From Candidatus Woesearchaeota archaeon (GTDB taxonomy: Archaea > Nanobdellota > Nanobdellia > UBA10117 > JABICX01), in the NCBI GenBank assembly GCA_964528765.1, contig CAZGVA010000001.1:1-44548 (forward strand): a stretch of DNA of 44,548 bases, written 5' to 3'. Both the position numbers and the translations under genes were made by a program. The notes beneath the pieces were generated by a model. It saw only the letters and a list, made by a program, of their open reading frames with translations. It was not told the DNA's origin and searched no databases. Position 1 is the first letter of the stretch. The number at the start of each line of letters is the position of its first letter. Below are positions 1 to 21,162 of the stretch, piece by piece.

Positions 1-3000
1 AGTCTGAGCATTAATTGCAATGCTTCCAGTATTATTTCCATTACTGATTGTTGTGCTATCCCAACTGTATGCTTCTGAGTTGTCAAAGTTTGCTAGCCAT
101 TGTGTGTTTGTGTTATTTGTAATGTTTCCAGTTCCGGAATCCAATGTTCCATTAATCGTTAAGGAATCTACATAAAGTGTTGATGAGTCAGTGATGTTTA
201 ATGTATCTCCAAGTCTAAACGTAAATCCATTAAACCATACTTCCTCTTCAATTGTAATTGTCTTATTGTATGTCTTATAATTTGTTACAATGTCTTTCTG
301 GACATCTACCCATTTTAGAATTAGATTACTTGGTGAATAACTTGTTGCAGATAATAAATTTGGTGCTCCCACTTCATCACTAACATTTGCTAGATAACTA
401 GCAGAGGCTCCCTGTAATGTTGTTATGGTTTGACCATTATGTCCATATAAATAATCTACTGAAATTATTCCAGACTGACTAGTATTTCCCATAGTCAAAA
501 TAAGATTATTTTCAGTTATGTAGAATAAATCAACGCTACCTACACCACTTAACTCATTGATAATCGTCATGTTTGTTTTCATCTCAAGATTTCGCTGACC
601 TTCTGTTGCATCTACTTCAACATTGTAAAAGGAGTTATTTCCGTCCCAGTTTGAACTTGAACTCGAACCCCAATTTACAGCTACATTATCATCTACAAAT
701 CGCTTAGAAGTCGCAGTTCCATCATTGTGGGTGAATGTTCCTGAATTATTAAAGTTTCCAGAAATTGTTGTTGTTCCGTTTGTTGCAATGTATGTTCCGG
801 ATAAAATAGTCAAGCTTCCCAGATAGTGGCTTCCAGTTTCATCTCCATCGCCAAATGTTCCACCATTAACAATCAAATCACCATTAATATTAACTACTTC
901 ATCTTCATGAGTGGATGAGGATTTGAAGTAGCCGCTAGTTATATTCATATCATTTGCAGTTATATTATCTCGCCATACAGTATTACTTTCAATAATTACG
1001 TTGTTGAAGGAATTTTCTTCATCCAAATTACCATCAATAGCAACCCAGTCCTCTAAATGATCAAATACAACCGTTCCAGAATTATTGTAAAATGTTCCTT
1101 CATTATTCCAAGCAAGATTGTCAACACTTTCTTTACTCGTGATTGTTGTTGTTTCATATGTTGCATTGTAAACTCCACCTGAGTTGATTGTTAGTGAACC
1201 AAAGTAGTAGCTCTCATTATATGTGTCTGTTGTATCTTTCCTAATTTCTCCACCATCTTCAATTACAACATCTCCAGAAACATTCAAATTTCTTTGTGTT
1301 GGCACTACTAATCCCTCAACAACAGTTAGATTTCCTTCAATGCGCATTCCTTCAGGATTTGAATTTCCAAAGTAAGGCATTTGCAATGTTGCTCCAGACA
1401 TATCAACAATAACATTATACAGTGGATCTGCACAAGCTCTAATCCGCATGCCAGTATCACTCGCAAATACAAATGTTCCATTATTGTGTGTGACAGTTCC
1501 AGATGTACATTCCAAATCATTTGAAACAGTGGTGTTTGTTATTGTTGTGTTTCCAGAAGTTGCATCGTATTCTCCGCCGGAGTTGATTGTTAATGAACCA
1601 AATGACTGTGAATAATTACCAATATTAGCGGTAATAACATCAAGAGTTCCCGTTACAATAACATCGCCAGTTACAGTTAAAGCATGTATATTTATTTCAT
1701 ACGTTCCAGAAGAGATGATTAGATTATTATCGATTGTATACGCTGCTCCTGCGCTGCCCCATGAATTTTCAATTACGCCACCCGTGGCTATTTCTAAATC
1801 ATAAATATTTCCCGTATTTCCATTTGGATCTATTTTTGTAGGATTTATAGTGGTTATATTAATAAGCCCGTCATTTGCATTTAATATTCCATCATGGATA
1901 AATGCATATCCGCTACTTGCTTCATTAGATATAATTGTTGTTTGATTGGTTGCTTCGTATGTTCCTGTAGAATAAATTCGAACTGAACCAAATTCTTGAT
2001 TTCCACCAAGACTTGCATTCAGAATTCCACTTATTTCTGCATCTGCTGTTCCGTTAATTGAATAAACATCTGTTGAAACCGTAACATCTTCATTTACAGT
2101 TACATTATAACAAGTTAAATTAGCAGTTAGAGTTGTGTTTACTGCAAATGTACAATTTCCGGGAGTTGGTCCGCCAGAGAAAATCCACATTCCATCTGGA
2201 ACATTATTACCATAATCCACACCATCATATACATAGATTATATCGGTTCCAGTGTTGTTTCCATAGCTGACATTTGCATAGTTGAATGTTTCTGTGATTG
2301 CTGAAGCGTTGATTTTCCAGTAATTTGATCCGGAAATTGTTGCATAATCAGTTAAATTACCTTCAACATTAACTGCTCCCGTACTTGTTCCAAAACCTGT
2401 TGCTAAAGTTGATGTAAAATTGAAAACTGCGCCCGGATCAACATTTAGTGTTCCAGTAACGGTGATATAACTTACTTGAATATTATTATCACTAGTATTT
2501 ACTTCATCACCTGATCCAATAGATAAATATCCATTAACGGTTGCATCTCCAGAAAAACGAGTTTTAGTTGATACAATAAGATAGGGATATGTGCTGGCAG
2601 GTATTGGTTCTAAACTCTGCCAATAAAATATATATTGATCTGCAAGAGTTGCTCCACCATCATTAAATGTTCCTGGATTATTCAATCTAAAGACTGTTGA
2701 AGCATCTCGATTAAATGTTCCTGACCCCACCGTCAAATTTCCGTCGAGAGTAATTTGCTCAGCAGTATCTCCTGAAATAACAAATGGATCTAAAGTTGTT
2801 GTTTTTCCAGAAGCCGCGGTTTCTAAACTATACATATCCAAATTTCCTAAGTAAGTGAAGTTTCCATCGCCAGTCATATTTACAATTGATGTTCCTTTGG
2901 TGAATGCGCCACTACTTGCCCAGATTGTTGAAGCACTTGCATTTCCCGTATTTGAGCCAATTGAATCTGCAACGTCTGTTCCAGTTCCTTCATCAAATTG

Positions 3001-6000
3001 CCAGCAAGATACTAAATTAGTTTGACTCAGATCTACACATGTTTCAAACATATTTGCTCGGATATCTGCTTCTGAAAGAGCTGCATCATATATAGAAACT
3101 CTTCCGATTTCTCCATCCCAATAACTAGTAAAATCTCCTGCTGTAAATAACGAGCCAATTGTAAAATCATTTGTAGATGCGATAGACCCACTAACCTCAC
3201 TAGATGCTACAATTTTTCCATCAATATACAATAATAAATTAGCGCCATCATAAGTTCCAACTGCATTATGCCATTTTCCATCATTAACATCTTCTGGACT
3301 CATTGCACTTGTTGATGGACCATTATCAATTGTAATTCTTACATTTCCATTACTCATATACATTCTATATCCTGTCGCAGTTCCAGTTGCTCTACTAATT
3401 AAACCATAAGTAGTATCCATTGTTGACGCAGTTGTTTTAAACCATACATCAAAAGTTCCAGCTGTTGTTATTTCTAATGAATTATCCTCACTACAATTAA
3501 CATTTTTAGTTCCATCCAGATCTAAAGCACTCTTTCCAATTAATCCACCTGAAGATTGCCAGTTTTCTTCAACTTCAATTATTGCAGTTCCACCATCAAG
3601 TTCTGCGCCTGTTGCTATTATGATATTATCAATATCCTGACTACGTCCTTCTAAATCATATACTCCCGAACCAATAATCAAAGTATTAGCTAAATTAGAA
3701 GTAAATGATCTACTTGAAGTGAAAGTTCCACCATTAAAGAAAATAACTTCTTTTGTAGGTGTATTCAAATCATTGTTTCCACTTCCAGTCATAATTATTT
3801 TTGTTGTGCTTTCCCCAGTCCATCCTGTTCCATCATAATCAACAAGATCTGCAAATATTATTGAGTCTGTTGAGTCAATTGCTCCATCAATATTTAAAGT
3901 CCCATCAAACTCTGCTCTTTGGCCATTCAAGTCTAATGTATCATCTGCTGAAACGGTAAATGCATCAAATTCACAGTCACCATCAAGGGTGATTGTTACA
4001 CTATTTCCGCTTGTTGAAGTAACATCATCTTGGAAGTCAAGCCATTTTAGAATTGTTGAAGTTGTAAAATGATAATATGGTTCATCTGAAACAATTCCGG
4101 GATATAATTGACTAGCTCCTTGAAGACGGCTATTTACCGTTGTCTGCCACCCACCGGTCAGAGTTCCTTGTGAAGACGAATTTCCAAGAGTTAGAGTACT
4201 ATATAATCTAATTACATCATTTGCTGGATTAGCTAGGGATGACCTAACAATAATTGGTACGTGAAGATCTAACTTATCAGTACCGGACACAGTTATGTTA
4301 TAGAATTCAGATTCAGAAGAGCCAAGTATATTCATAGCAACCGTGTCACTTGCGAAGTCAACGGTTCCATCATTATGTATGAATGTTCCATCATTGTCAA
4401 AGTCACCTGAAAGAGTTGTAGTTGCACTTGTAGCTGAATAAGTTCCACTTTCATTTATTAAAATTGAATTAAAACTTTGGTTTCCACCGAGACTTGCATT
4501 AAGAGTTCCATTAATACTTGCTTCGCCAGATGCTGTAATATTATATTCATCTGTATCTAATGTAATTCCTTCATCTACAATTAATTCAGTACAAACAAGA
4601 TTTGCAGTAAGAGTAACTATTGGTGCTGTATCAAATACGCAACCCTGTGCAATAACAACTGTATCTGAAGCATCTGATCCATTAACTAAACCATCGAAAG
4701 GTGTTACTGTGCAATTCCAATTATCTGCATTTGTTAAATTATCTCTTGCAAGTATATGTGAATCTGCAGATTGTTCAATTGTAAGATTCAACACATCATC
4801 TTTATACCATTGGAAAATGTAATTTTCCGGATCACTTTCTGCATCTGACCATCCCGCGACAGTACATGTTAAATCATTATCGGTTGTTGGTGAATCGGGT
4901 GTAACATCCACACCTGAAATTGTTGGAGCAACATTACCTTCACCAAGACTGTAATTTGTAAACTGACTCACATTGAAATAAAATGTTTCAGCTGTATCGT
5001 TATACGCATCACTACAATATTCAGATGTACACGTAATATTATTTCTAAATGCAACTGGTACTTTATAACCACTAATTCCATATAAAGTTAGATTAGCACT
5101 TTGATTTAATCCTTGGAAGCTATCTGAATCAACATCAATTAAGTTTTCAGATATTGTTATTCCATTATCGAGTCCAAGTGTTCCAGATTCAGTTACAGAA
5201 AGATCTGTTGAGTTCCAGACTACTTGTCCTAAAGAGTTATTGTATATAAGTGAGTTAAGGTAACTTCCACCTGTATCATCTAAAATAATATTTGCAGTTG
5301 CAGTAATATTATTATTTACGATAATATTATTGTGCGAGCTATCTGTTAAATACACAGAGTAATCGAATTGATTTGTAAAATTATTGTTTCTCAAGATGTG
5401 ATGATCTGCATCGTCAAAGACTATTGCGTGATCATTTGATGCTTCACTATACACTCGATTATTTTCAAGAATACTACGATCTGTATTCATCAGTAATATT
5501 GCCCAAGATGCTCCAGTAATATTATTATTGTATACCCAATTATTAAGTGTGTCTGATGCATACAATTGAAATGCGTAAGATCCATCACTATGAAAATCGT
5601 TGTTAGTCCAATTACAACGATTACAATTTCTAGCGTACACTGATCGATCATCCTTTGTATATATTGTATTACTATCTGCTACTAAATCATCTGCACCGTA
5701 TGTCCAAATTCCAATACTTCCGCCACTGCCATCAAGAGTTATTATGCAATTTTGTATCTGCGTATTATATGGTGTACCTCTTACATATATTCCATATTCA
5801 CTGGTTGATCCAGAAAGAGTAATATTTGTAGTATTAATTAAGGTATTATCGTAAGCACTACCATACACTTGAATACCAAAATCACTATCTGATCCAGTTA
5901 AATTAATGTTACAATTTTTAATCTCTACATTTTCGGCTAATACATCAATTCCATAATCGCCAGTTCCTTGGATTGTATAGCCATCACAGTCAAATACAAC

Positions 6001-9000
6001 ATTTGCTGCAGTTATTCTTACGATGTAATCATCAGTACATCCAGTAATATTATAAGCTAAAGTATATGTTCCCGATTCATTAATACCCATTCCGCAAGCA
6101 CTAATTGTTCGTGTTGAACTATTTATCCAACTTGAGTTATCAATTCCATCTGTAGCTAAACAAGATAGAGTCCAATTTGATCCGGGATGTGTATCTGCAC
6201 TAGATATATTATATATATTCTTTTCAATACCTTGTGTGAATGTTCCAACTTCACCCGTTAAGTTTAATGTATCATTCATATACAACTGGTAATAGTACGT
6301 TACATCTTCAGCATCGCCATCTGTCGCATTACAATATCCCATTAAACGCGAACGATCGAATGGATCAACCGGCGTAATATTTGCTGAAATTATAACTGGT
6401 GCTAAATTAAATTGTAAACTATAATTTGTAAATTCAGATACATTGAAGTAGTAATTTCCACTGCCAGTTTCAGTTACAGCTGAACAATATGCACCACAAT
6501 CAACTTCATTTCTCAAAGTAGTTGGTGTTTGTCCTGCTTCTAATCCATAGAACGTTAAATTGGCTGATTGGTTTAATCCTTGGAATGATGTTGAATCTAC
6601 ATCAATCATATTTTCAGAAATTGTAATTCCATTATCTAAACCAACTATTCCAGATTCCAAAACAGTTAGATTTGTTGAGTTCCAGATAACTTGTCCTTGT
6701 GAGTTGTTGTATATCAATAAATTAGATACACCTACGCCACTTGCATCATCGATTGTGTACGCAGACGATGCCGAAATATTATTATTTAATAATATATTTT
6801 CAGAAGAATCCCCAACAAATGTTAATACAACACTTAAACCACTAAGATTATTATTTGATATTATATTTAGATCTGCAGTATTCACTTGCATAGCTTGAGC
6901 ACCAGGTGTTGAAATCTTATTATTATCGACGATATTTGAATCGCTACTCAGCACAACAGTATATGAACCCGTTGCATAAAGGTCATTATCTTTCAATAAA
7001 TTATTTGGCCCACTATTAAATTGAGTAACCTCGCCACTTGCAGATAAATTATTATTTGTAATATTATTATCATTTGAGTTAGATGTAACATAAATTCCAT
7101 AATGACTTACAACATTAACCAAATTATTATTCATTATATTGTAATCTGAACTTGTTAAGTAAATTCCATACCGATCTTTAACTTCAATCACATTATCATC
7201 AATTATATTGGAATCTGAATCCGTCATGTAAATTCCAAAATCATCTCCTGTTGTGTTGATTATGTTAGATGTAAAGTTGTTGTAATCCGAACTAGATATG
7301 TAAACTGCTTCATCATCTCCTGCTTTAATATAATTATTTGTAAAAACACTTCGAGAAGTAGTGCCAGTAAGATAAACAGCTCGAGATCCACTAACAGTAA
7401 TATTATTATCCCATACACTATTGTTTTCAGAATCTCCAGTTCTAATAGCAACTGCCCCCGTTGCGGCAGTTATATCATTATTATGTATATTTGAATTATC
7501 TGGACCATACCCCCAAACATGATCTAAATCAATTGCGTATTGGCCATCAACAGTAATATTATTATAAGATATATTTAGATTGTTCATTCCACCCAAAGCA
7601 ACTATTGCCTGATCATCTTTTACATAAATTGTATTATTATATATTACACTACTAGTTGTCCACACGTAAATTCCATAATCTGAATCACTACCCGTTAAAG
7701 AAATATTGCAGTTTCTGACAGTTATATTGCCCGCAGTCAGCATAATTGCTCTATCCCCAGTTCCTTGAATCGTGTGTCCATCACAATCAAATACAACATC
7801 ACTTGCTGTTATGTTGATTATGTAGTCGTTGGTACAATCCATAATATTTGCTTGTAAGGTTTTTGACGCAGTGATTTCTTGACTACATGTGTCTCCAACA
7901 GAATAATTTGTAAATTCTGAAACATTAAAATAATATGTTCCTCCACCAACATTAGTTATTTCACTACAATAATCTCCACAATCGGCATAGTTTCTTAATG
8001 GCATTGGATGTATAATTCCAGAAACATCATAGAAAGTCAGGTTAGCAGATTGATTTAGTCCTTGGAATGATGTTGAATCTACATCAATCATGTTTGATGT
8101 AATTGTAATTCCATTATCAATTCCGAGTGTTCCTGACTCAGTTACATTTAGATTTGTTGAATTCCAGACTATTTGACCTTGGGAATTGTTGTAAATTAAA
8201 GTATTGTTATAACTAATTCCACTATCATCCAATATAACATTTGGTGTTGCAGCAGTTATATTATTATTTAATAATATATTAGATCCGGCAGGCGAAACTA
8301 AAGAAATTCCCGAATAAGAATCAGCAGTTATAATATTATTTTGTAGTAGGTTATTATGCGCACCATTTATTGTAATTGCTTTATTATTTGCAGTTATATT
8401 GTTGTTAGTAATGATATTATCATCACCACTAATCTGTAACCCGTAGCTACCTGATATAGCTACGGCAATGTTGTCTGTAACTATGTTACTTGAGCTTGAA
8501 CTAAGACGGATTGAATTGTATTCGGCAGCAGTTACATTATTGCTTATTATTCGATTATTTGTGCTACTGCTCGCCAGAGATATTCCTTCCCGATTTAGAA
8601 CTACTATATAATTATTTGTAATGTTATTATAGGTGGACCCTGTTAGATAAACACCATAATAATCCTCGACCTCAATCAAATTATTATCAATTGTGTTGTG
8701 ATCTGAAGCAGTCATATATATACCATAATCCATTGTAGAACCCGTTACATTAATTATATTATTTTGTAAAATGTTGTTTTCAGAACTTAACTCAATATAA
8801 ACTGCAGATCCACCAACAGCAGTAATATTATTATTTGAAACATTGTTGTCTGAACTCGTACGTAATCTAATTCCATACTCATTAGTTACATCCAGTTGAT
8901 TATCTGTTACGGTGTTATTATTACAACCATCATAAAAATAAAGTGCATACTCATCTGTCGATGTAAAAACATTATTTGATATTGTGTTATCAATGCTGTC

Positions 9001-18000: not shown

Positions 18001-21000
18001 GTTGGCTAAAAAGTTATGATTTTTTTCTACTTCTAAATTATACACAACTTCTTTTTCCTCAACTAAATATTTTTCAGTAATAATTTCCCGAGTTAAATCA
18101 TAAGATTCTGCATCAACCCCAATAAATACTTTTACCCATTGAATTAATTTAACAAATAAATTGTCTGATTTTACAAAAGTATTCTCGTCAAATATAAATA
18201 TCGTATCACCGACGCTTAACTCAGATGCATACACAAAATCCTTTTTAAAATCAAGCATATCTCCTACATTAATATTATTTTCTTTTGCAAATCCCGATTT
18301 AATTTCCAATACATATCTTGTGCTATTTAAATTCTTATCATATATTTTTCCAGGTAAAGCATTATGCTCCACCGCCAATACAACACCCTCAATATCTATC
18401 CAAATAATATCTAGTGAGTGTTTCAAAGTTTTAGTTTGTATTATTACATTGCCAATATCTTGAATCATAAACAAAACACCTTCATCTACCCAAGACTCTC
18501 GATCGGTTAATCCTTGAGTTTGTTCTTCTTTTGTATACAACCTATGTGGAGTAACAAGTTTTTCATTTTCTAGAACAATGTCAGTTTCGGTTAAAAATGA
18601 GTGGCTTCTAGTTGGTTTAACTGAATAATTATTTGCTTTCAGAAGATAATACTCTTGTGGTGAATACTCAAAAACATGTGTTACTCTATCTTTTTGTATT
18701 TTTCCAGTATCTACGTTAAAAGCGAAAATCGTATCATTAACTTTAATATCTTTTATTTTGACATCTCCAAATGTCGTATGCACTAAAGTGTCACCTGTAA
18801 GACATACATTATTCTCAATCTGTATCTGAAAATGAAGCTCATCCTCGTTATAATCCCAGCACGAGTCAGGTAGTGATTCATTAGTTGTTGTTGGTCCGCT
18901 TGCTGTATCCATTCTCACTTGTATTACACTTTCATTTGTTGCTCCTGCAGGTTTTGTATAATTGAAGTCACATACAGCAATCTGTCCATTACTTGAAGTG
19001 CCAAAAGTATCCCAATCACCATCATAAAAATTGGCTGCATCAACAGGACTTCCTGTACAACTATAACTTATATCTGGATCTTCTTGATAAGACCACTCAG
19101 GATCGTAAGCAAAATCACTAACTGAATCATTTTTATTATAAAAGTCAAATCTAATTGTTGCATAACCTGCAATGTGCATAAGATTGCTTAAGTAAGCTGT
19201 TTCTGAACAAGTGTAATTTTCAATTAGCCAATAATCTGGCTTAATTGATTGATTCTGGGCTAATTCTATGTATCTGTATGAATTATTCTGAGCATCTACA
19301 ATCAACAGAGAATCTGCTAAATTAATTGAATCATTAAGATTTGCCTCTCCGCAGGTCAGGTCTAAGAACCTCATTTCATCAACTGTTTCGTCTAAGTCAG
19401 TAAGTATCTCGGTCCAGTTGGCGTTTGGTGAAGAAATCTTCAAATCTGCAGTTCCACTTGTGTTGAAAGCAACTATCCATGTTTCTCCATCTCGCAAGTA
19501 TGTGTATGGATTCAAAACAATAATTTCAATTTCAAATACTTGATCTGAAGTGTGTGGTGTGATCCATTCTAACTTGTCAATTAAACCATCTTCATCCGCA
19601 TCAATCATCCATAAATCAATATTCTCATCCAGAGTAACATCTACTTTTGTTGTTGTAGTAATAACTTCAAAGTATGTTTCATTAGTAGTTTCATTAATCT
19701 GCTCAACTTCAGTAGTATTTTCTTGTATCCAGTACAACTGGATAGCAGATTCAGGAACTTGTTGCTCAAGAGTTGTATATGTAAGAATATTTTCATAGTG
19801 CAAATCTGAAGAAACTATAACTCTCTTTCCAAGATCTGTTGCTTCTTCAGTTGTTGTTGGAGCAGGAGTTTCATATTCAATAAGTAATTCATCATCAGAA
19901 GTGATATTATCATTAACAATAATTGTCTTGTTTGGACCATCTTCAAATGCTACATATCCTGTAATAGCCCCACTAAATGTTTGTTTTATCCAATTTACAA
20001 ATTTAATTAGTCCCAAATTATTTGTTTCGGAGACAGATGCTCCAGTTATTCCATAAACTTGCTCACTTGCGGGTATATCAAAACTTTCAGTTTCTGCTTC
20101 CGGATTAGCTAAGATATTTTCATCAGAAATATCATAAATTGAAATACCTTCAATATTCTCATCTGGAATTATCTCTTCAAAACCATGAGAATTAATTTTT
20201 TTGATTTTAATTTGAGTTGCATCTTCTGGAACTTCAATTAATAATTGTGTTGTATCGGATTCAGGCTGAACTAGAGTTGACCATTGAACGGGCTGGTTAA
20301 TAATTGCGTCAAATTGAACAGTTCTAACTCCCTCAGGTGTTTCGCTAATTATCTGCTCAATTTCAGGTGTATCATTTATTTCAGGAGTATTGTTCAATTC
20401 AGGAATTGTAAATTCTTCTTCAGGTGTTTCTTCGGTTTCATTCACAACTTCAGGTGTTTCAGTATCTTGTGGAATTGCTCCATAAACTACAAAATAGGTG
20501 ATTGATTCTTCTTCAGCAGGCATACTTGAGACTGCGCCAGTAACTGCATCTGAAATACCAAATTCTGTCTCTGAGACCGGGTCTTGGGTTGATTCTTCTA
20601 TATCTTTTTCAGGTGTTTCTTCTACTTCTTCAACTAGCTCTGGATCTTCTTGTGTTTCTTCTTTTTCAGATTGTTCTTCGGTTTTTTCAGGTATTTCAAA
20701 CTCAACTTCAGGTGTTTCTTCTTGTTCTGGTTGTTCTTCAGATTCAGTATCATTTGTTTCAGGTTGCTCTTCAGGTGTTTCAGATTGCTCAACAGATTCT
20801 TCAGAAGAAGTTGGAGATTCGTAAATTAAATTATCAAACACAATCTCAGCTTCAATACATAACTCATTTTCATAAACTTCGTTTTGAATTGCAAAGGATA
20901 TATCTGTTCCATCAGAAGTATAAACTGCAATTCCATCCATACAAACTTGTGGTTTGTATTCGTCAAAAGTTATTATTTGAGTAATTATTTCGTCTGACGG

Positions 21001-21162
21001 TGTTGCTATTATTGAGATTGAACCCTCCCAATCAGATTCAATGCCTAAAAGGCTATACCCAGTTAGAGGAGTTGTATTTTCATTAAGAATTGATACTAAA
21101 GATAACAGTGCTAATAACGCTATAACAAGTACAAAAATGGTACTATCTTTCTTAAATTCCAT
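1..21162 (-). CDS. giant secreted/cell-surface (adhesin-like) protein, N-terminal 7,054 codons; 3' end lies beyond window position 1
   Basis: Not in the supplied ORF track because there is no stop inside the window. ATG at 21160-21162 (alternative in-frame ATG at 21184-21186) gives MEFKKDSTIFVLVIALLALLSLVSILNENTTPLTG..., a KK plus hydrophobic signal anchor. Hand translation in the frame whose codons end at coordinates divisible by 3 is open and protein-like wherever I checked: 21162-20290, 18804-18421, 18048-17947, 15702/15097, 13830/13213, 10728/10174, 4944-4801, 3567-2971 and 60-1. Any in-frame stop would have produced a listed Met-to-stop ORF, and none exists. Only 61-131 aa antisense or out-of-frame scraps are listed across 21 kb. 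Many N-x-S/T sequons. Confidence 0.85.
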   Translation of the reverse strand, partial: MEFKKDSTIFVLVIALLALLSLVSILNENTTPLTGYSLLGIESDWEGSISIIATPSDEIITQIITFDEYKPQVCMDGIAVYTSDGTDISFAIQNEVYENELCIEAEIVFDNLIYESPTSSEESVEQSETPEEQPETNDTESEEQPEQEETPEVEFEIPEKTEEQSEKEETQEDPELVEEVEETPEKDIEESTQDPVSETEFGISDAVTGAVSSMPAEEESITYFVVYGAIPQDTETPEVVNETEETPEEEFTIPELNNTPEINDTPEIEQIISETPEGVRTVQFDAIINQPVQWSTLVQPESDTTQLLIEVPEDATQIKIKKINSHGFEEIIPDENIEGISIYDISDENILANPEAETESFDIPASEQVYGITGASVSETNNLGLIKFVNWIKQTFSGAITGYVAFEDGPNKTIIVNDNITSDDELLIEYETPAPTTTEEATDLGKRVIVSSDLHYENILTYTTLEQQVPESAIQLYWIQENTTEVEQINETTNETYFEVITTTTKVDVTLDENIDLWMIDADEDGLIDKLEWITPHTSDQVFEIEIIVLNPYTYLRDGETWIVAFNTSGTADLKISSPNANWTEILTDLDETVDEMRFLDLTCGEANLNDSINLADSLLIVDAQNNSYRYIELAQNQSIKPDYWLIENYTCSETAYLSNLMHIAGYATIRFDFYNKNDSVSDFAYDPEWSYQEDPDISYSCTGSPVDAANFYDGDWDTFGTSSNGQIAVCDFNYTKPAGATNESVIQVRMDTASGPTTTNESLPDSCWDYNEDELHFQIQIENNVCLTGDTLVHTTFGDVKIKDIKVNDTIFAFNVDTGKIQKDRVTHVFEYSPQEYYLLKANNYSVKPTRSHSFLTETDIVLENEKLVTPHRLYTKEEQTQGLTDRESWVDEGVLFMIQDIGNVIIQTKTLKHSLDIIWIDIEGVVLAVEHNALPGKIYDKNLNSTRYVLEIKSGFAKENNINVGDMLDFKKDFVYASELSVGDTIFIFDENTFVKSDNLFVKLIQWVKVFIGVDAESYDLTREIITEKYLVEEKEVVYNLEVEKNHNFLANRFLVHNQIGGGSSVTLRCMNEASYSPLRTVTSYKEFYEEAMYWSIDNSVECGTEITTSTELSEDIMDCTNDYIINITASDVVFDCAGHTIQGNENTGFWVTGDNVTVKNCNLSINGTGKSYGIYYWGASNGLIENNTVTVDLNRGIMLHNNADSNIVANNTVSVGNDEGIYLYYRSNLNEVYNNTISADSMSLRIYNDGDYNNIYYNTITATTSKALQVTDAKGCNVYNNEITAATEAIYLSFTQTYDNIFLNNNITASSSYIIKDDTTSDYLNNIIYNNSYGEVNWKNIEDLDVTEAGTLGLGNGIDITLNSIDVDSASFQGLNQPANLTFYDVSGISLPITLRNDEACGDYCGEISDLGGDDYEFNVSEFTNYSLDDLDQCNPVQSFELVDNVSCTDLNISEGIVVNTSVFSYEVTGDAEINGTLNASLGGDQIFGSLVIQSTGIYLASSENTTISGGGAIVFDNNGEFVHNNGNVVFNGTANPVDISPNGAIFENLTIETGTNTRFRENFTVLNLLHLDSGVPQMYDGTGIILGNDSQQGILNNTVGGTGFILASSNDNATIEGASQLYPGIIDSENGVWTWDYRVGSNWKFKWVDFQSDITIDSGSANLATITLEGDCEFDAVTVSNDETFDINGQRVRFGGIFNQGSGTTNFGTDALVLFDGYINLDGACPADTPPTFILSGAGSTTDVEDGQLAGQTVFVQDGTYTLSTNSISTNRNVIIGSGILDTHATNNQGLKTNNLTIATGGTLQARSSNISVTDNFQSSGGLIGKSALDLTKTNEYVDAGNDASLNMNEITVETWLKPTSYSHQVVNYPISKYESTNTWALGISGTYTGDGIGYPGQVYLYDGTPGDLAVSTTALDIDKWHHVAFTNNGTTTKIYIDGKYEGFKEQDISTDTTNPLTIGRRSDGSFYFNGSIARVSIYDAELSVSEIRANMFAKCADMSQTNLVSCWQFDEGTGTDVTDSIGSNDGTASADTVWASAGTLIADDAIFNFTGTYNQTAMFGGVMLNRTEITNTGTGTGLILLDSMSASGDVFIDDGILYGNTSDHTFENLTINAGGEYSATSGTTNIHTDFEISGIFTHNDGTVSSKRLTAGDGNAYWGLNSASDWTGSNSFYNVVSDATAAQRNLNMRADMTIINELSGLGGTDLFYITSDNRILTMGNASQSGTITLDYLYGNSGQAVTTIRGANQRYPVIISSEVAHPRALMSGVYSPQTINLKWVDVQQDITTESTAKTINLTGDCEFDAFTLSSGDSLNLSNHRAEFDGYYDTAGTTDFGTDALVIFNAGADLDGSCPADTPPTIILSGAGGNVDIEDGQIAGQTLFIQNGTHKINSAGATARKRTIIGSGTWNTSDSSTQFYSGNLTIANTGIFEANSANITISENWQSSGGLIGKSAFDDNQGALVEIDAVVADMTLSDGFTVESWFNLDAYDTAHQEIVSLGASDDSEWGNIQVAKSDGSTPNMLKVSTDGKTGGSSGIVPIVGVWHHTAMVWDGTLFRLYLDGKIIQEITPSSSINWGNINRAAIGASRTNVNDQFFDGKIARVSFWDSILTESEIRDLMFDKYSELSSTTELKGWYQFDEGTGTDVADSHSTSNDGTMSSELWVTGGTFNGDESTLNFTSAINQTAIFGGAIINNTEITNTGTGTGLVLLDSMSASGDVFIDDGIVYGNTSDHSFGSLTIKSGGTYDATSGTTTISDECTTAEPIGCVVGYAIDCDGDFNANSGKFMVQSPATNIDFECNSGNPYNLEVDMDSATYDFDLQAPLTVSNNLIIDDGDLDTNNNPIIVTGLLQVQDNGEFDAQGDTVDHVFGAIDSASGSIFSPNDANINITSEYSNYAVDLDGGFGSNTATFIIKTDESTLIDLTPSSSFYPWNVIINLTDPLYTATIFDENTYIPGNLTISSGKLDCYGFDLTVIGDAVVDGTLDGTTADISFGSLTINSSGVYNATTGTTNITGNLVNYGIFNASSGGIIMHDGMYNAGTFDGTPESMNVTGEWGSYAINDDGTYYGNGGTVIISAQDSTIEADLATAGTGYNNLNISIGDGNYFRIVNGAGLDGDLHLLSGDVGSSTGGKLLSVAGNVVIYDGAMYGGGSGVQDYVSISFGSLTINSGGVYNATNGTTIITNSGIAFDNDGTFTHNNGTVLFDGATATAKIYANDAIFYDVIMQPISSGSYWIYEGVTIENALTLNDGLVNRVNENTLTLKAGAEVNGTSEFWTGENEFRIYGESQIEPGIISTTGGLTTTVGTIAFKWIDYQTALETGGDTTLVRLDGDCEFDGFTVTSGDTLELNGQRAEFGGTLNSDGTFDAQNALVFVNNTIDLDATSHLANASLILISAGNPSLDINSAGTGEFDNVLLNGGGANIYTLTSTLDDVHNLIIGVRRLHTGSDQSIYVSNLTIATDGMITAGESTISVSENWQSSGGLIGKSALDLDGPYVNMGTPDTLLLGDDITIDAWVKTLDTTGDIVWKSNYGYGLHIVDSTAMGKIISGTSSNVTGTTNVSDGKWHHIVWVFEENNDQQIYVDGKLDGNETALAGNNGAAVDFRIGLNLISQIGRVSIYNTTLVESEIRANMFEPCTSMSNPSELVSCWQFDEGTGTDVADAIGSNDGTATADTVWAGAGTFTSETSTVNMTGDGTIYFAVDNTLQFYNLSAAQPGKTTTLDVIGTTWGRINLTGTLQTDTGSLVDSINEGFNFFEEAPIDGGSTFGNIYYGDYYNGVNITGSTYQLLRVQNDTSYASGDIITETLSLGSSDTFYSNTYDLTVTSEISGTGVFNLGPESMLNFTHIRGFSDTSGFTGEVNIVGNESDYAHVTGTGVSWMINSSAMAENFTYANVSYGNNTGEDIITVMGGIDYGNNVPEGMWSFEEFSLCNTEITESTDLEEDIMDCTVDYIINITTADVVFDCAGYTIQGNESYGIYVNASGVTVQNCNVSLNGTGKDYGILYDTADNGSIYNNTVYVDHHWAIKLATSNNNDIINNTATGERVMLLYPDSIDNTISNNVFTSTDEYALYFYDGCNNNTVTDNQLDVTNEYGIRLRTSSDNNVSNNNITAVGGSAVYIELSSENNILQNNIINVTGSTMDYGIYMTASDHNTIDNNLIEVEDYYGVYLTGSTYNNITNNYIVVLNREGISLASSSTNNRIISNNVTAAEYNSIRLSSSSSNIVTDNIAVAISGSYGLQISGDDNIITNNNITANNKAITINGAHNNLLQNNIITADSYSGISLVSPAGSNILLNNNITAATPNVILDDSGISYNNTLIYNNSQGQIVWNSTNLNVTESGTLGIDNGITITSNMIDVDSTSFQGLNQSANLTFYDVSGIIHPMPLRNYADCGDYCSEITNVGGGTYYFNVSEFTNYSVGDTCSQEITASKTLQANIMDCTNDYIINITASDVVFDCDGHTIQGTGDRAIMLTAGNITVRNCNISLTGSDSDYGIYVWTTSSVIYNNTIYVKDDQAIVALGGMNNLNISYNNITVDGQYAIDLDHVWGYGPDNSNIHNNDITAATGAVAIRTGDSENNSVWDNNITVSGSRAVYLTGTTSRSVFTNNYIKAGDDEAVYISSSDYNNFTSNIINTTGDDFGIYMTDSDSNIIDDNVIEVKDRYGIYLTSSDYNIMNNNLVNVVSHYGIYVTSNSNDNNITNNNLSASGEVTQFNSGPNNLLKDNDLYATGSYTVVLSSDSNIVDNNKISTPGAQAMQVNTADLNIISNNNLSGLSVVLTFVGDSSENILLNNNISASSAYTIDDASGVGVSNLLIYNNSQGQVIWNSTNLTVLESGIVGLDNGITISENMIDVDSTSFQGLNQSANLTFYGLEAGQTPTTLRNEVDCGAYCSAVTETGSGNYYFNVSEFTNYSLQFNLAPVIISANITPVDPFDRSRLMGYCNATDGDAEDVTYYYQLYMNDTLNLTGEVGTFTQGIEKNIYNISSADTHPGSNWTLSCLATDGIDNSSWINSSTRTISACGMGINESGTYTLAYNITGCTDDYIVRITAANVVFDCDGYTIQGTGDYGIDVLAENVEIKNCNINLTGSDSDFGIQVYGSAYDNTLINTTNITLSGSTSEYGIYVRGTPYNTQIQNCIITLDGSGGSIGIWTYGADDLVADSNTIYTKDDRSVYARNCNRCNWTNNDFHSDGSYAFQLYASDTLNNWVYNNNITGASWAILLMNTDRSILENNRVYSEASNDHAIVFDDADHHILRNNNFTNQFDYSVYLTDSSHNNIIVNNNITATANIILDDTGGSYLNSLIYNNSLGQVVWNSTDLSVTESGTLGLDNGITISENLIDVDSDSFQGLNQSANLTLYGISGYKVPVAFRNNITCTSEYCSDAYNDTAETFYFNVSQFTNYSLGEGNVAPTISGVDVTPDSPTTDNDLTCTVAGWSDAESDPENYIFQWYKDDVLNLTIEQSADSHILARDNLTNADNWNCTVTPFDGLVNGSDASDTVVIAQGCVFDTAPIVTLTANLVCTELIVDEGITLDTDEYNITASGEASINGTLNASLGGNQSFNSILINESGTYSATSATTTLSGDFDNDGTFIHNDGTVDFASDTVAMNILGSSESEFYNITVSGTDKLDLHVPIIVRSSLANPANDVIRLYSTLTLGNSSSQGTLTGGWQTTVNSRLQGASQLYPGIVSDEPYYHFTTSTILKWLDFQDDVTSTSGNSVTITLDGDCEFDAFTVSADDTLDLNGQRAEFDGTLNIDGAIDSTDSIIFADLVDYDGTGWTGESTTKIIMTGSGNNDLNTPTKEVIFFNGGTFTSSRSFTSNLANTLIIGSGVYDLEGRSQDIDNIIIATGAELDGGTAIIEVEENWQSSGGLIGKSALDLDGTKNVNCSEDNSLEITTAGTFDVWFKTTASTMDTTYGLISRATGTATGYRMYMSNGNVRITIDNGPSTSAMSPEDVNDGKWHNAVGTYDGANLLLYIDGKIVASSEVSGSIASTNDFTIGSLFTAGDFTSYWDGEIGRVSIYDAALSEADIRANMFETCVDLSQTNLVSCWQFDEGTGTDVADSIGSNTGNASASTIWASSGAFTKGTSIVNMTGDGNFTYLGNLDMYSLETAASGKTTTLDPFVISGDTAEQITLDGNLTVGSGTFNRDASTVFRLNNPGTFNDGGATLADQYIFYWQSLEPIPASTYPYLIVSTKTRFSGDATVNGYLSIGSGDEVNTSDNNIQVSYITVTGTLNVDPGAVFNFTSTLATGFGTSTGAVNVEGNLTDYATISGSNYWKINASAITETFNYANVSYGNNTGTDIIYVYDGVDYGNNVPDGMWIFSGGPTPGNCTFAVNTTLTANLTCYNVTVNEDVTVSTDVYSINGTADAEISGILNASLGGNQEFGSVRIYSTGTYEATNQTTIISNEASSGYAFIHDGILNANDGLINITTINPTKIDPNGNTGNIYDLEIATGGVIENSWGSAGAAYTIDNNLIISSGTYEINIHALTVTGDVIVTGTLDVITANIGNYSQSFGSLTINSGGEYDATSGNTTITNTTVSNDLECTSGTVTHNNGTFVFASDTGMRIRACADPLYNVIVDMSGATLQMPYFGNSNPEGMRIEGNLTVVEGLVVPTQRNLNVSGDVVIEDGGEIRKDTTDTYNESYYFGSLTINSGGVYNATYETTTITSKESVDNLAWNNEGTFYNNSGTVVFDHLEDWVAIDGNLDEENSFNNVIIESNTVWRDNITANDMNITSGYFKSSSTHEDEVVNINGDLIVNGGTFGDGDETGSHYLGSLTILSGTYIATNGTTTISGNFNNSGTFTHNDGTATSKRFVDDNVAVNWGSSSSSNWDGNNSFYNVEVDATEGQRNLEMKTNMTIINELSGVGSVDLFYITENNLILTMGNTSQSGIISVDYLYGHNGQTITTLQGASASYLANVSDEVGAPNLLSATSYSPSNLILKWVDVQKDIVTNYKTYNKTITIEEEVWFNGFTFRLGDTLNITDSSTLYVDSLTINGTLDSGTGNITNNTNTQWLANFDNSEAYSWDSTTISNGNNTGSIAINAQT
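2971..3567 (-). other. LamG-like lectin domain 4
   Basis: ENWQSSGGLIGKSALDLDGTKNVN...KWHNAVGTYDGANLLLYIDGK...IGRVSIYDAALSEADIRANMF...LVSCWQFDEGTGTDV. Frame verified at 2971-3015 and 3520-3540. Confidence 0.75.
4651..4929 (-). other. ~93-aa Ig-like beta-sandwich domain after beta-helix module 4
   Basis: Verified translation: APTISGVDVTPDSPTTDNDLTCTVAGWSDAESDPENYIFQWYKDDVLNLT...NWNCTVTPFDGLVNGSDASDTVVI. Confidence 0.45.
4945..6096 (-). repeat. beta-helix module 4 (NosD/PbH1-like)
   Basis: CGMGINESGTYTLAYNITGCTDDYIVRITAANVVFDCDGYTIQGTGDYGIDVLAENVEIKNCNINLTGSDSDFGIQV..., ending IDVDSDSFQGLNQSANLTLYGISG..FNVSQFTNYSL. Confidence 0.7.
6097..6402 (-). other. ~100-aa Ig-like beta-sandwich insert between beta-helix modules 3 and 4
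   Basis: APVIISANITPVDPFDRSRLMGYCNATDGDAEDVTYYYQLYMNDTLNLTGE...NWTLSCLATDGIDNSSW. Paralogous to 4651..4929. Confidence 0.45.
6415..7887 (-). repeat. beta-helix module 3 (NosD/PbH1-like)
   Basis: CSQEITASKTLQANIMDCTNDYIINITASDVVFDCDGHTIQGTGDRAIMLTAGNITVRNCNISLTGSDSDYGIYV..., ending IDVDSTSFQGLNQSANLTFYGLEAG..FNVSEFTNYSL. Confidence 0.7.
7897..9363 (-). repeat. beta-helix module 2 (NosD/PbH1-like)
   Basis: CNTEITESTDLEEDIMDCTVDYIINITTADVVFDCAGYTIQGNESYGIYVNASGVTVQNCNVSLNGTG..., many (S/T)xNNxIxNN coils, ending IDVDSTSFQGLNQSANLTFYDVSG..FNVSEFTNYSV. DNA is roughly 75-90 percent identical by eye to modules 1, 3 and 4 at both ends. Confidence 0.7.
10174..10728 (-). other. LamG-like lectin domain 3
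   Basis: ENWQSSGGLIGKSALDLDGPYVNMG...KWHHIVWVFEENNDQQIYVDGK...IGRVSIYNTTLVESEIRANMF...LVSCWQFDEGTGTDV. Confidence 0.7.
13213..13830 (-). other. LamG-like lectin domain 2
   Basis: ENWQSSGGLIGKSAFDD...VWHHTAMVWDGTLFRLYLDGK...IARVSFWDSILTESEIRDLMF...KGWYQFDEGTGTDV. Confidence 0.7.
15097..15702 (-). other. LamG / concanavalin-A-like lectin domain 1 (Laminin_G_3-like) of the giant protein
   Basis: FQSSGGLIGKSALDL...KWHHVAFTNNGTTTKIYIDGK...IARVSIYDAELSVSEIRANMF...LVSCWQFDEGTGTDV. Confidence 0.7.
16870..17850 (-). repeat. right-handed parallel beta-helix module 1 (NosD/PbH1-like) of the giant protein
   Basis: Starts CGTEITTSTELSEDIMDCTNDYIINITASDVVFDCAGHTIQGNENTGFWVTGDNVTVKNCNLSINGTG.., continues as ~22-aa NN-I/T coils, and ends ..IDVDSASFQGLNQPANLTFYDVSG...CGDYC...FNVSEFTNYSL. 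Confidence 0.7.
17983..18804 (-). other. Hint (intein-like / bacterial-intein-like type) autoprocessing domain, 274 codons, inside the giant ORF (aa 787-1060)
   Basis: Verified codon by codon. ...IENNV|CLTGDTLVHTTFGDVKIKDIKVNDTIFAFNVDTGKIQKDRVTHVFEYSPQEYYLLKANNYSVKPTRSHSFLTE..., with the Cys1 codon at 18802-18804 and a block-B-like T-x-x-H (TRSH) about 65 residues in. ...EKEVVYNLEVEKNHNFLANRFLVHN, with the terminal Asn codon at 17983-17985, followed by QIGGGSSVTLRC. The +1 residue is Gln, not Cys/Ser/Thr. No LAGLIDADG/HNH-like motif seen in the ~170-aa middle part. Confidence 0.8.
20329..20820 (-). repeat. acidic Glu/Thr/Pro-rich low-complexity linker of the giant protein (about aa 115-278)
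   Basis: Translation: ESPTSSEESVEQSETPEEQPETNDTESEEQPEQEETPEVEFEIPEKTEEQSEKEETQEDPELVEEVEETPEKDIEE...TETPEVVNETEETPEEEFTIPELNNTPEINDTPEIEQIISETPEG. ETPE-type units are reiterated. The plus-strand Ser/Leu-rich ORFs 20498..20824 and 20589..20984 are its antisense shadows. Confidence 0.8.

What the first reader, a model, noticed from the sequence alone, without database searches (positions are those of the whole stretch)
1..21162. A 21-kb, >=7,054-codon gene is invisible in the ORF track
Half of the window looks empty in the supplied track, with only 61-131 aa scraps. That is an artefact: the minus-strand frame whose codons end at multiples of 3 starts at ATG 21160-21162 and never meets a stop before position 1, so no Met-to-stop ORF could be reported. 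Every stretch I translated by hand is coherent protein. The order is a signal anchor, an acidic linker, a ~500-aa unknown region, a Hint domain, beta-helix modules, LamG domains and solenoid repeats with reiterated FGSLTINSGG(V/E)Y(N/D)AT turns. The gene is still incomplete at the window edge, so the real protein is larger. Proteins of this size are rare in archaea and would dominate the coding budget of a small genome.
Basis: seen in the sequence. Interest (0 to 1): 0.7.

Follow-up and report, generated by a model that had tools for sequence, protein, structure and literature searches.

The report
Giant archaeal surface protein with intein-like insert
Half of this contig is one real, unfinished gene for a huge (over 7,000 amino acids) sugar-coated surface protein of a tiny DPANN archaeon, which is a known kind of protein, but it carries an unusual self-cutting intein-like element with an extra domain of unknown function nested inside it.

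Summary
The minus-strand frame 21162->1 has 7,054 codons and no stop, against 276-927 stops in the other five frames. The window is the whole 44,548-nt contig, so the gene is cut by the contig end.

It is a modular exported protein of at least 760 kDa, pI 4.05, with 221 N-glycosylation sequons. Its parts, in order:
- an N-terminal hydrophobic helix and an acidic spacer;
- an all-beta module of about 400 aa with no Pfam family, which heads at least 77 surface-protein genes in DPANN genomes (435 to more than 4,363 aa);
- four NosD/beta-helix modules, four LamG domains and unannotated beta-solenoid modules.

Neighbouring genes (L10e, diphthamide synthase, RNA polymerase subunit L) mark an archaeon. 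Giant DPANN surface proteins of up to 9,409 aa are already published, so size alone is not new.

The unusual part is aa 787-1060. This is a Hint/intein domain with Cys1, TxxH and terminal His-Asn intact, but Gln at +1. A well-conserved DUF192 domain sits where a homing endonuclease normally would. The element is inserted precisely into a small beta domain that three homologues carry uninterrupted. No protein combining Hint and DUF192 appeared among the 150 best matches (the only ones listed) in 1.84 billion representatives. It most likely cuts itself out after export, as bacterial intein-like (BIL) domains do.

The parts
1..21162 (-). Giant ORF, 7,054 codons, 3'-truncated by the contig end (partial product >=760 kDa, pI 4.05, 221 N-x-S/T sequons)
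21073..21162 (-). N-terminal signal/anchor helix (aa 1-30). It is followed by TPLTGYS, a P-x-[ILF]-T-G motif shared by most family members
20293..20820 (-). Acidic Glu/Thr/Pro-rich spacer (aa ~115-290) built from degenerate short repeats
   Evidence: family D8
19063..20295 (-). Conserved N-terminal all-beta module of a DPANN surface-protein family (aa 290-700; core aa ~424-690; ends FAYDP). No Pfam family and no PDB relative
18805..19092 (-). N-terminal part of the small host beta domain (aa 691-786; YQED..DGDWDTFG..NYTKPAGA..CWDY)
17983..18804 (-). Hint/intein-like element (aa 787-1060). Cys787 is residue 1, block B is T851-x-x-H854, and it ends VYNLEVEKNHNFLANRFLVHN1060. The +1 residue is Gln1061 (codon CAA)
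18241..18582 (-). DUF192 domain nested in the Hint between block B and block F (aa ~861-974)
17863..17982 (-). C-terminal part of the host beta domain (aa 1061-1100; ...LRC..FYEEAMYWSI)
16864..17889 (-). Module A copy 1: NosD/right-handed beta-helix plus ~100-aa tail (aa 1092-1433)
4939..9399 (-). Module A copies 2-4 (aa 3922-4424, 4426-4916, 5016-5408), with two Ig-like linker domains (aa ~4917-5010 and 5410-5505)
15187..15651 (-). LamG (Laminin_G_3) domain 1, aa 1838-1992
13306..13758 (-). LamG domain 2, aa ~2469-2619
10267..10653 (-). LamG domain 3, aa ~3504-3632
3061..3510 (-). LamG domain 4, aa ~5885-6034
1..1800 (-). Beta-solenoid repeats with FGSLTINSGG.Y.AT turns (aa 6455-7054). The model is all short beta strands. 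The window ends inside a module-junction motif
21152..21415 (-). 87-aa winged-helix (HTH_45, weak) gene whose 3' end overlaps the giant gene's ATG by 11 nt; likely co-transcribed

Best explanation
Window 1-21162 (minus strand) is a single genuine gene. The contig end truncates it. It encodes a giant, Sec-exported, heavily N-glycosylated, acidic surface protein of a DPANN (Woesearchaeota-like) archaeon.

Shown: the protein starts with one hydrophobic helix and an acidic spacer. Next comes a conserved ~400-aa all-beta module that heads a large family of DPANN surface proteins whose C-terminal 'passengers' vary widely. Here the passenger is more than 6,000 aa of repeated beta-helix (NosD-like), beta-solenoid and LamG lectin-like modules.

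Inferred: the protein is held on the cell by its N-terminus and projects a long glycan- or protein-binding fibre that mediates contact with a host cell or substrate. This matches what has been proposed for other DPANN giant and LamG proteins.

Shown: between the stalk and the passenger, a small beta domain is interrupted, precisely, by a 274-aa Hint (intein-fold) element. The element keeps Cys1, the TxxH motif and the C-terminal His-Asn. It has Gln instead of Cys/Ser/Thr at +1. It carries an intact DUF192 domain at the position where inteins carry a homing endonuclease.

Inferred: after export the Hint folds and forms a thioester at Val786-Cys787, and Asn1060 cyclises. Because +1 is not a nucleophile, the main products would be cleaved ones, as in A-type bacterial intein-like domains. 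These products would be the membrane-anchored stalk, a free ~31-kDa Hint::DUF192 protein outside the cell, and the passenger with an N-terminal Gln. Some ligation of the two flanks, or continued non-covalent association of the two halves of the host domain, is possible.
For: Gene reality:
- 0 stops in 7,054 codons against 276-927 in the other frames.
- Significant Pfam domains along the whole length.
- Internal repeats are old: DNA copies are 60-91% identical over at most 272 nt, and protein modules are 30-58% identical.
- Window 16064-22766 is 100% identical to a separately assembled JGI contig, and 20811-21645 to an ENA contig.

Archaeal host: L10e, diphthamide synthase and RNA polymerase subunit L are next door.

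Exported and glycosylated:
- Only one hydrophobic helix, at aa 5-30.
- 3.1 sequons per 100 aa, with 139 expected from composition, against 0-1.5 in most neighbouring genes; only two neighbours reach ~2.3, one of them the LamG surface protein.
- pI 4.05.

Family:
- 34 homologues share aa ~424-690 at 44-47% identity, mostly from DPANN MAGs.
- 77 loci in GTDB genomes carry the module near the N-terminus, with ORFs of 435 to more than 4,363 aa. Most complete members have only the N-terminal helix.

Solenoid: the model has pTM 0.69 and is all-beta. The top Foldseek hits are all beta-helical adhesins or passengers, though none is significant.

Hint:
- Intein_splicing scores 43.7 bits (cut-off 35.8), TIGR01445 28.8 (24.5) and TIGR01443 28.8 (15.6). 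DnaB and DnaX mini-inteins are the best PDB matches.
- C787, T851, H854, H1059 and N1060 fall in invariant alignment columns.

DUF192: 54 bits (cut-off 27), 36-42% identical to stand-alone DUF192 proteins. 50 of 51 of those proteins start with a hydrophobic helix, so the domain works outside the cytoplasm.

Precise insertion: with aa 787-1060 removed, the flanks align without a gap across the junction to uninterrupted homologues in L080, L081 and L011.

Cleaving type: among 140 Hint C-termini of the 150 closest representatives, 138 end in His-Asn. The +1 residue is Lys in 86 and Cys/Ser/Thr in only 30. BIL domains lacking the +1 nucleophile give mainly cleaved products (PMC7664689; PMC7765530).
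Against: - There is no expression, proteomic or biochemical data, so export, glycosylation, adhesion and Hint activity are all inferred.
- The C-terminus is missing, so a second (C-terminal) anchor or an enzymatic or ATPase domain cannot be excluded.
- Window 1-16063 has no independent assembly.
- Block F position 4 is Asn rather than the usual Asp, which may affect catalysis.
- The Hint scores better against true-intein models than against PT-HINT (22 bits, below the 27.7 cut-off) or the BIL structure 2lwy (E 0.075). Its assignment to a cleaving class therefore rests on the +1 residue and on its nearest relatives.
- The element is a singleton. None of the 77 related loci has it, so it may be a recent, selfish or even mildly harmful insertion rather than a functional part.
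- The Foldseek matches for the solenoid and for the N-terminal module are not significant.
Confidence: 0.75

Rival explanations
1. The Hint is a true intein that splices efficiently. It would restore an intact host domain and a single-chain giant protein, and DUF192 would be a passenger that replaced the homing endonuclease.
For: - Best sequence matches are true-intein models and DnaB/DnaX mini-inteins.
- The insertion is precise and lies inside a folded domain that homologues carry uninterrupted. That is the hallmark of an intein, whose removal is needed for host-domain integrity.
- A BIL domain has been shown to ligate without a nucleophilic side chain (Aranko et al. 2013, cited in PMC7664689).
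Against: - The +1 residue is Gln (CAA, at least two nucleotide changes from any Cys, Ser or Thr codon; identical in a second assembly). The canonical transesterification step is therefore impossible.
- Most nearest relatives also lack a +1 nucleophile.
- The host is a non-conserved extracellular protein, which is typical of BILs and not of inteins.
Confidence: 0.12
2. The Hint::DUF192 is an inactive relic or purely structural insert. The protein stays as one chain with the element displayed on the stalk.
For: - It is a singleton, absent from all 77 related loci.
- Block F position 4 is Asn instead of Asp (alignment).
- Its GC content is slightly lower (29.4% against 33-34% in the flanks), as expected for an acquired element that need not be functional.
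Against: - All residues needed for thioester formation and Asn cyclisation are intact.
- The DUF192 signature (GL, GxLF, DIIWID, YVLE) is well kept at 36-42% identity to free-living homologues.
- There is no frameshift or stop.
Confidence: 0.2
3. The 21-kb ORF is an assembly artefact: a chimeric concatenation or collapse of several paralogous surface-protein genes.
For: - The protein is built of repeated modules.
- The contig breaks inside it.
- Other assemblies of the same population are fragmented into 0.8-6.7 kb pieces.
- Nothing independent covers window 1-16063.
Against: - No long near-identical repeats exist that could mislead an assembler. The longest repeat is 272 nt at 78%, and the most similar is 46 nt at 91%.
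- The reading frame is kept over 21 kb with zero stops in 33% GC DNA.
- Module order is regular.
- The first 5.1 kb are identical in a separate assembly.
- Relatives with uninterrupted ORFs longer than 4,000 aa are common.
Confidence: 0.04
4. The passenger is mainly enzymatic. It would be a polysaccharide-degrading or cell-wall-attacking machine (NosD/pectate-lyase-like beta-helices) rather than an adhesin.
For: - Four Beta_helix/NosD modules. This fold is common in polysaccharide lyases and hydrolases and in tailspikes, which appear among the Foldseek hits.
- LamG and CBM-like domains often accompany such enzymes.
Against: - No catalytic family (GH/PL) model matched.
- The best structural neighbours of the solenoid are adhesins and autotransporter passengers, not enzymes, and none is significant.
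Confidence: 0.2

Closest known systems
Giant membrane-anchored surface proteins of DPANN archaea (e.g. SVXNc_0300, 9,409 aa, and 'SPEARE' proteins of Nanohaloarchaeota; LamG-rich surface proteins of Woese-/Micrarchaeota)
   Same: - Very large size and acidic composition.
- N-terminal export signal.
- Long arrays of beta-rich adhesion-type domains, including LamG.
- A small-genome DPANN host.
- A proposed role in host contact (PMC10266531).
   Different: - No detectable sequence relationship to those proteins was seen.
- This protein belongs to a different family, defined by its own ~400-aa N-terminal module.
- Its passenger is beta-helix, solenoid and LamG rather than Ig-like arrays.
- The C-terminal TM and VirB4-like ATPase of the nanohaloarchaeal proteins cannot be checked because the C-terminus is missing.
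- None of those proteins is reported to hold a Hint domain.
A-type bacterial intein-like (BIL) domains / PT-HINT autoproteolytic Hint domains
   Same: - Hint fold motifs with Cys1 and C-terminal His-Asn.
- No nucleophile at +1.
- Located in a variable, exported, non-housekeeping protein.
- Nearest relatives mostly have Lys at +1.
   Different: - The host is archaeal.
- It scores above threshold only for intein models, not PT-HINT.
- It sits near the N-terminus, upstream of a 6,000-aa passenger, rather than just before a C-terminal toxin.
- It interrupts a folded domain precisely, as an intein does.
- It carries a nested DUF192.
Canonical class 1 inteins with a nested homing endonuclease
   Same: - Blocks A, B, F and G are present.
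- A foreign domain is nested between blocks B and F.
- The insertion is precise, and element-free homologues of the host domain exist.
   Different: - The +1 residue is Gln.
- The nested domain is DUF192, a domain found in extracytoplasmic proteins, not a LAGLIDADG or HNH endonuclease.
- The host is an extracellular, poorly conserved protein rather than a replication or repair enzyme.
Beta-helical autotransporter/TPS adhesins of bacteria (Ag43, pertactin, FHA)
   Same: Long beta-solenoid passenger with repeated G-rich turns. These are the top, though non-significant, structural neighbours.
   Different: - There is no beta-barrel translocator or TPS domain.
- The protein is archaeal and anchored by its N-terminus.
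- Sequence similarity is undetectable.

Membership tests
Canonical (class 1) intein | Hint splicing blocks A, B, F, G recognisable | tested here: met
   PF14890 43.7 bits (cut-off 35.8); TIGR01445 28.8 (24.5); TIGR01443 28.8 (15.6); DnaB/DnaX mini-intein matches
Canonical (class 1) intein | Cys/Ser at residue 1, and His-Asn at the C-terminus | tested here: met
   Cys787; His1059-Asn1060
Canonical (class 1) intein | Cys/Ser/Thr nucleophile at +1 of the C-extein | tested here: not met
   Gln1061, codon CAA, identical in a second assembly
Canonical (class 1) intein | Precise insertion into a host domain that exists without the element elsewhere | tested here: met
   Uninterrupted homologues in L080, L081 and L011 align across the junction without a gap
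Canonical (class 1) intein | Protein splicing demonstrated | not testable with these tools
   Needs expression of aa ~690-1112 and analysis of the products
A-type bacterial intein-like (BIL) domain | Hint motifs with conserved C-terminal His-Asn but no +1 nucleophile | tested here: met
   definition from PMC7765530 and PMC7664689
A-type bacterial intein-like (BIL) domain | Located in variable regions of non-conserved (often secreted) proteins | tested here: met
   The host is a variable giant surface protein, and the element is absent from 77 related loci
A-type bacterial intein-like (BIL) domain | Type-specific sequence motifs / closest similarity to known BILs | tested here: inconclusive
   BIL structure 2lwy matched only at E 0.075, weaker than true inteins. 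PT-HINT scored 22.3 bits, below its 27.7 cut-off. No A-type BIL profile was available
A-type bacterial intein-like (BIL) domain | Bacterial host | tested here: not met
   Archaeal contig. A close Hint relative, P0038, is also from a Micrarchaeota MAG
DUF192 (PF02643, COG1430) | Match to the family profile above its gathering score | tested here: met
   54-55 bits against a cut-off of 27; profile positions 8-96 of 96; PDB 3pjy E 1e-4
DPANN surface-protein family with the conserved N-terminal module (unnamed; alignment A1) | N-terminal hydrophobic helix followed within ~150-925 aa by the ~270-aa core ending (F/Y)AYDP, then a variable passenger | tested here: met
   44-47% identity to 20 homologues; same position and order as in the 77 loci
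Nanohaloarchaeal giant 'SPEARE'-type proteins | C-terminal transmembrane region and VirB4/TraG-like ATPase domain; Ig-like arrays | not testable with these tools
   The C-terminus lies beyond the contig end, and the exact 50-mer of window 1-50 was not found in three collections. No ATPase or Ig arrays occur in the 7,054 aa present

The most novel reading that the evidence does not exclude
The Hint::DUF192 insert is an intein-derived processing device that acts outside the cell and has been put to use. After Sec export it excises itself and so uses the giant adhesin as a vehicle to deliver a free DUF192 protein to the cell surface. At the same time it turns the adhesin into a two-chain molecule whose stalk and 6,000-aa passenger are held together only by the two halves of a split beta domain. 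In the boldest form, its Val786 thioester is captured by a nucleophile on the host or on the cell's own envelope, Hedgehog-style, to make a covalent link. This would be the first archaeal example of Hint-mediated surface-protein maturation, and it would give DUF192 its first functional context.
Probability: 0.1. Interest if true: 0.75.

Novelty: new variant of a known kind. Interest (0 to 1): 0.45.

Why it matters
DPANN archaea live attached to other cells, and their giant surface proteins are the prime candidates for that contact. Almost nothing is known about how those proteins are matured.

This gene adds a well-defined member of a large family that has not been described in the literature I searched. 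The family is marked by a conserved N-terminal module and a conserved 'helix + P-x-[ILF]-T-G' start.

The gene also shows a Hint element with all cleavage residues intact sitting exactly between stalk and passenger. If the element is active, it would show that intein-like autoprocessing operates on archaeal cell-surface proteins. It would extend the 'bacterial' intein-like class to archaea. It would also offer an easily testable 274-aa construct that links DUF192, a widespread secreted domain of unknown function, to a concrete biological setting.

As a practical point, the case shows that ORF tracks requiring a stop codon can hide half a contig.

Tried and rejected
1. Extending the gene. An exact 50-mer of window 1-50 is absent from genome contigs, metagenome contigs and viral contigs. 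Neighbour-gene look-ups returned only 0.8-6.7 kb contigs of the same population. A search with the last 600 aa gave no hit above 38% identity. The C-terminus was therefore not recovered. A 38%-identical homologue (L084) continues at least 1,000 aa past the equivalent point, but it has a frameshift and a stop.

2. Relatives carrying the same Hint::DUF192. The word-indexed search gave one weak hit. The exhaustive search gave only Hint-only or DUF192-only proteins among the best 150. None of the 77 family loci has either domain.

3. A structure model of the Hint::DUF192 precursor. MAFFT mis-aligned the mixed partial sequences. No model was made.

4. Fold assignment of the N-terminal module. The model has pLDDT 71, but no Foldseek or PDB-sequence match is significant.

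5. Pfam assignment of the interrupted host domain. Only a sub-threshold CBM_6 hint appeared, at E 0.038.

6. Repeat collapse as an explanation, rejected because the repeats are too divergent.

7. RNA genes. There are no Rfam or tRNA hits in the window.

8. Viral origin, rejected because the contig carries ribosomal, RNA-polymerase and diphthamide-synthesis genes.
Full report
**Observation.**
Translating the minus strand from 21162 to 1 gives 7,054 codons without a stop. The other five frames of the same stretch contain 276-927 stops, in DNA of about 34% G+C. The frame begins with ATG 21160-21162 (MEFKKDSTIFVLVIALLALLSLVSIL...). The nearest in-frame stop is 23 codons upstream. One alternative ATG lies 8 codons upstream. 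Exact look-ups of neighbouring proteins show that the longest record carrying them is 44,548 nt. The window is therefore the whole contig, and the ORF is cut by the contig end. That is why a Met-to-stop ORF list shows only scraps.

**Is it a real, single gene?**
- Significant Pfam matches are spread along the whole length.
- A self-comparison shows two recurring module types, whose copies are only 30-58% identical at the protein level.
  - Module A is a NosD/right-handed beta-helix plus a ~100-aa tail, at aa 1092-1433, 3922-4424, 4426-4916 and 5016-5408.
  - Module B is a solenoid followed by a LamG domain, at aa ~1445-2060, 2100-2690, 3165-3700 and 5518-6100, with a partial copy from aa 6776.
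- At the DNA level the longest repeat is 272 nt at 78% identity, and the most similar is 46 nt at 91%. Nothing is similar enough to cause repeat collapse or chimeric joining.
- Window 16064-22766 is 100% identical to a separately assembled JGI contig, Ga0208904_1005554 from sample 3300025669. Window 20811-21645 is identical to an ENA contig. This confirms the start, the N-terminal region, the Hint element and the first beta-helix.
- Window 1-16063 has no independent support.

**Host and context.**
- Neighbouring genes include ribosomal protein L10e, diphthamide synthase, RNA polymerase subunit L and a PPDK-like enzyme. Diphthamide synthesis and L10e point to an archaeon.
- There are no tRNA or Rfam hits in the window.
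- All close relatives of the protein's N-terminal module come from DPANN metagenome-assembled genomes: Woese-, Nano-, Aenigmat-, Micr- and Pacearchaeota. Some records are labelled 'Methanosarcinales', probably wrongly.
- An 87-aa winged-helix gene overlaps the giant gene's start by 11 nt, so the two are probably co-transcribed.
- The next gene upstream of that cluster (23593-27411) encodes another LamG/Ig-like surface protein.

**Anatomy.**
The partial product is at least 760 kDa with pI 4.05. Thr, Asn, Ser and Gly make up 39.5% of it. It has 221 N-x-S/T sequons, or 3.1 per 100 aa, against 139 expected from composition. Most neighbouring genes have 0-1.5 per 100 aa; only two reach about 2.3, one of them the neighbouring LamG surface protein. 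It has a single hydrophobic helix, at aa 5-30. These features fit an exported, N-glycosylated archaeal surface protein, but that reading is an inference. The order of parts is:
- signal or anchor helix;
- acidic Glu/Thr/Pro spacer (aa ~115-290);
- conserved N-terminal module (aa 290-700);
- a small beta domain interrupted by the Hint element (aa 691-1100);
- beta-helix, solenoid and LamG modules to the end of the contig.

LamG domains lie at aa 1838-1992, ~2469-2619, ~3504-3632 and ~5885-6034.

I modelled the last 600 aa, which have no Pfam match, using 16 homologues. The model has pLDDT 70.7 and pTM 0.69 and consists of short, periodic beta strands. Its best PDB neighbours are all beta-helical adhesins or passengers (Ag43, an antifreeze-adhesin beta-helix, IgA1 protease, VacA, pertactin), but none is significant (E >= 0.05). 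The 'solenoid' reading is therefore supported at the level of fold class only.

The window ends inside the motif ...ISNGNNTGSIAINAQT. At aa ~3899 and ~6299 this motif precedes 'DYGNNVPxGMW' and a new module. A 38%-identical homologue (L084) continues at least 1,000 aa beyond the equivalent point. The real protein is therefore clearly longer, perhaps above 8,000 aa.

**The 'unknown' N-terminal region is a family signature.**
- A search with aa 290-1075 returned 34 proteins. The shared part is aa ~424-690, at 44-47% identity, and not the Hint.
- In these proteins the module ends in (F/Y)AYDP. Unrelated passengers follow it: beta-helix, LamG, Ig-like, RCC1, VCBS and others.
- A profile scan of GTDB genomes found 126 matches, of which 77 distinct loci were kept, often several per genome. 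The ORFs range from 435 aa to more than 4,363 aa. Eleven run off the 10-kb flank I could fetch.
- Most complete members have only the N-terminal helix and no C-terminal anchor.
- A model of the module (pLDDT 71) is all-beta. It has no significant match in the PDB by fold or by sequence.
- I infer that this is a membrane-proximal stalk shared by a large DPANN surface-protein family. The giant is its largest member that I could measure.

**The Hint::DUF192 element.**
- Residues 787-1060 match intein models above their thresholds: PF14890 at 43.7 bits (cut-off 35.8), TIGR01445 at 28.8 (24.5) and TIGR01443 at 28.8 (15.6). DnaB and DnaX mini-inteins are the best PDB sequences.
- The catalytic positions are intact: Cys787 (block A, CLTGDTLV), Thr851-x-x-His854 (block B), and the end VYNLEVEKNHNFLANRFLVHN1060.
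- The next residue is Gln (CAA), not Cys, Ser or Thr.
- A DUF192 domain is nested between block B and block F, at aa ~861-974. It scores 54 bits against a cut-off of 27, matches PDB 3pjy, and is 36-42% identical to stand-alone DUF192 proteins with the family's motifs kept.
- Of 51 stand-alone relatives, 50 begin with a hydrophobic helix. DUF192 is therefore an extracytoplasmic domain, which fits an exported host protein.
- An exhaustive HMMER search of 1.84 billion representative proteins gave 2,354 hits. The best 150 are either Hint-bearing proteins or ~150-aa DUF192 proteins, and none has both. One caveat: the giant itself is not in that library, so truncated proteins are probably under-represented.
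- No paper in the library mentions both 'DUF192' and 'intein'.
- Both parts occur separately in DPANN. P0038 is a Micrarchaeota 'Hint domain-containing protein' and P0063 is a Woesearchaeota DUF192 protein.

**The insertion is precise.**
The flanks of the element (aa 691-786 and 1061-1100) are the two parts of a ~135-aa beta domain: YQED..DGDWDTFG..NYTKPAGA..CWDY...FYEEAMYW. Three homologues carry this domain uninterrupted. One is in a family member (L011) and two are on metagenome contigs (L080, L081). With aa 787-1060 removed, the alignment runs across Val786|Gln1061 without a gap. The domain has no Pfam family; CBM_6 matches only at E 0.038. None of the 77 related loci contains a Hint or a DUF192. 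The element's G+C content is 29.4%, against 33-34% in its flanks. It therefore behaves as an acquired, intein-like insertion in a non-conserved extracellular protein.

**How it most likely works.**
Shown: the element has the residues needed for the N-S acyl shift and for Asn cyclisation, and it lacks the +1 nucleophile. Among 140 Hint C-termini in its 150 closest relatives, 138 end in His-Asn. The +1 residue is Lys in 86 and Cys, Ser or Thr in only 30. Its nearest kin are thus the non-splicing kind.

From the literature: Hint domains without the +1 nucleophile (BIL domains) give mainly N- and C-terminal cleavage products. They lie in variable regions of non-conserved proteins, and a single mutation can turn them into splicers (PMC7664689; PMC7765530).

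Inferred: after export, the element excises itself. This separates the anchored stalk (aa 1-786) from the passenger (aa 1061 onward) and frees a ~31-kDa Hint::DUF192 protein. The two chains may stay together through the split beta domain, or may be partly re-ligated. I put about 0.5 on the element being active, and about 0.12 on efficient splicing.

The adhesin or host-contact role of the passenger is also an inference. It rests on domain types and on what has been proposed for other DPANN giant and LamG proteins (PMC10266531). An enzymatic role for the beta-helices is not excluded.

**Comparison and novelty.**
Giant surface proteins of DPANN archaea are published, up to 9,409 aa. It is not a detectable homologue of the nanohaloarchaeal proteins. 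It belongs to a separate family that I did not find described, defined by the N-terminal module.

The Hint element fails one defining test of a canonical intein (the +1 nucleophile). It meets the functional definition of an A-type BIL, except that its host is archaeal and its similarity to known BILs is weak. The nested DUF192 and the precise interruption of a host domain are, as far as these searches reach, without precedent.

I rate the whole as a new variant of a known kind, with interest 0.45.

Noticed in passing
window 27503-29895 (minus strand): Diphthamide synthase (PF01866) is in two pieces: 29647-29895 (profile positions 1-56) and 27503-28183 (positions 64-273). Two ORFs without Pfam hits, in other frames, separate them (29274-29558, hydrophobic; 28218-29267, 349 aa). 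This is either a split gene or an insertion.
   Followed up: no
window 35104-44007 (minus strand): A run of genes whose products start with 'M..KKG/KG + ~20 hydrophobic residues' (e.g. 43687-44007, 42000-43496, 41190-41954, 40346-41152, 39226-40143). They look like archaeal class III (type IV pilin-like) signal peptides and may form a pilus or surface-structure cluster. There are almost no Pfam hits.
   Followed up: partly
window 21052-21072 (aa 31-37, TPLTGYS) and family loci L003-L079: 43 of 69 members of the N-module family have T-G-[hydrophobic], usually P-x-[ILF]-T-G-[MFY], within ~16 aa after the first hydrophobic helix, against 7.8% of background windows. A second 'amphipathic helix + [IF]TGY' occurs before the conserved core (giant aa ~383-404). 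This may be a processing or sorting motif.
   Followed up: partly
proteins P0036-P0038 and relatives: The closest relatives of the Hint are proteins with four or more tandem mini-Hints joined head to tail by 'HN-KGG-C', followed by a Tim44-like domain. One is from a Micrarchaeota MAG. This architecture is odd and, as far as I know, undescribed.
   Followed up: partly
window 23593-27411 (minus strand): A second large surface protein (1,272 aa) with LamG and bacterial Ig-like domains lies 2.4 kb upstream of the giant gene. It is weakly similar to the giant's LamG modules.
   Followed up: no
L084 (ENA ERZ27250163 k141_100267): A 38%-identical homologue of the giant's C-terminal modules in another metagenome is broken by one frameshift (~nt 330) and one in-frame stop (nt 3246). 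It is either a decaying copy or contains assembly errors.
   Followed up: partly
locus records L009-L023 etc. (contigs CAYUHF01...): Several GTDB genome records that hold many paralogues of this DPANN family are titled 'uncultured Methanosarcinales archaeon'. One genome has at least 8 copies on separate contigs. The label looks like a taxonomic mis-assignment of DPANN bins.
   Followed up: no
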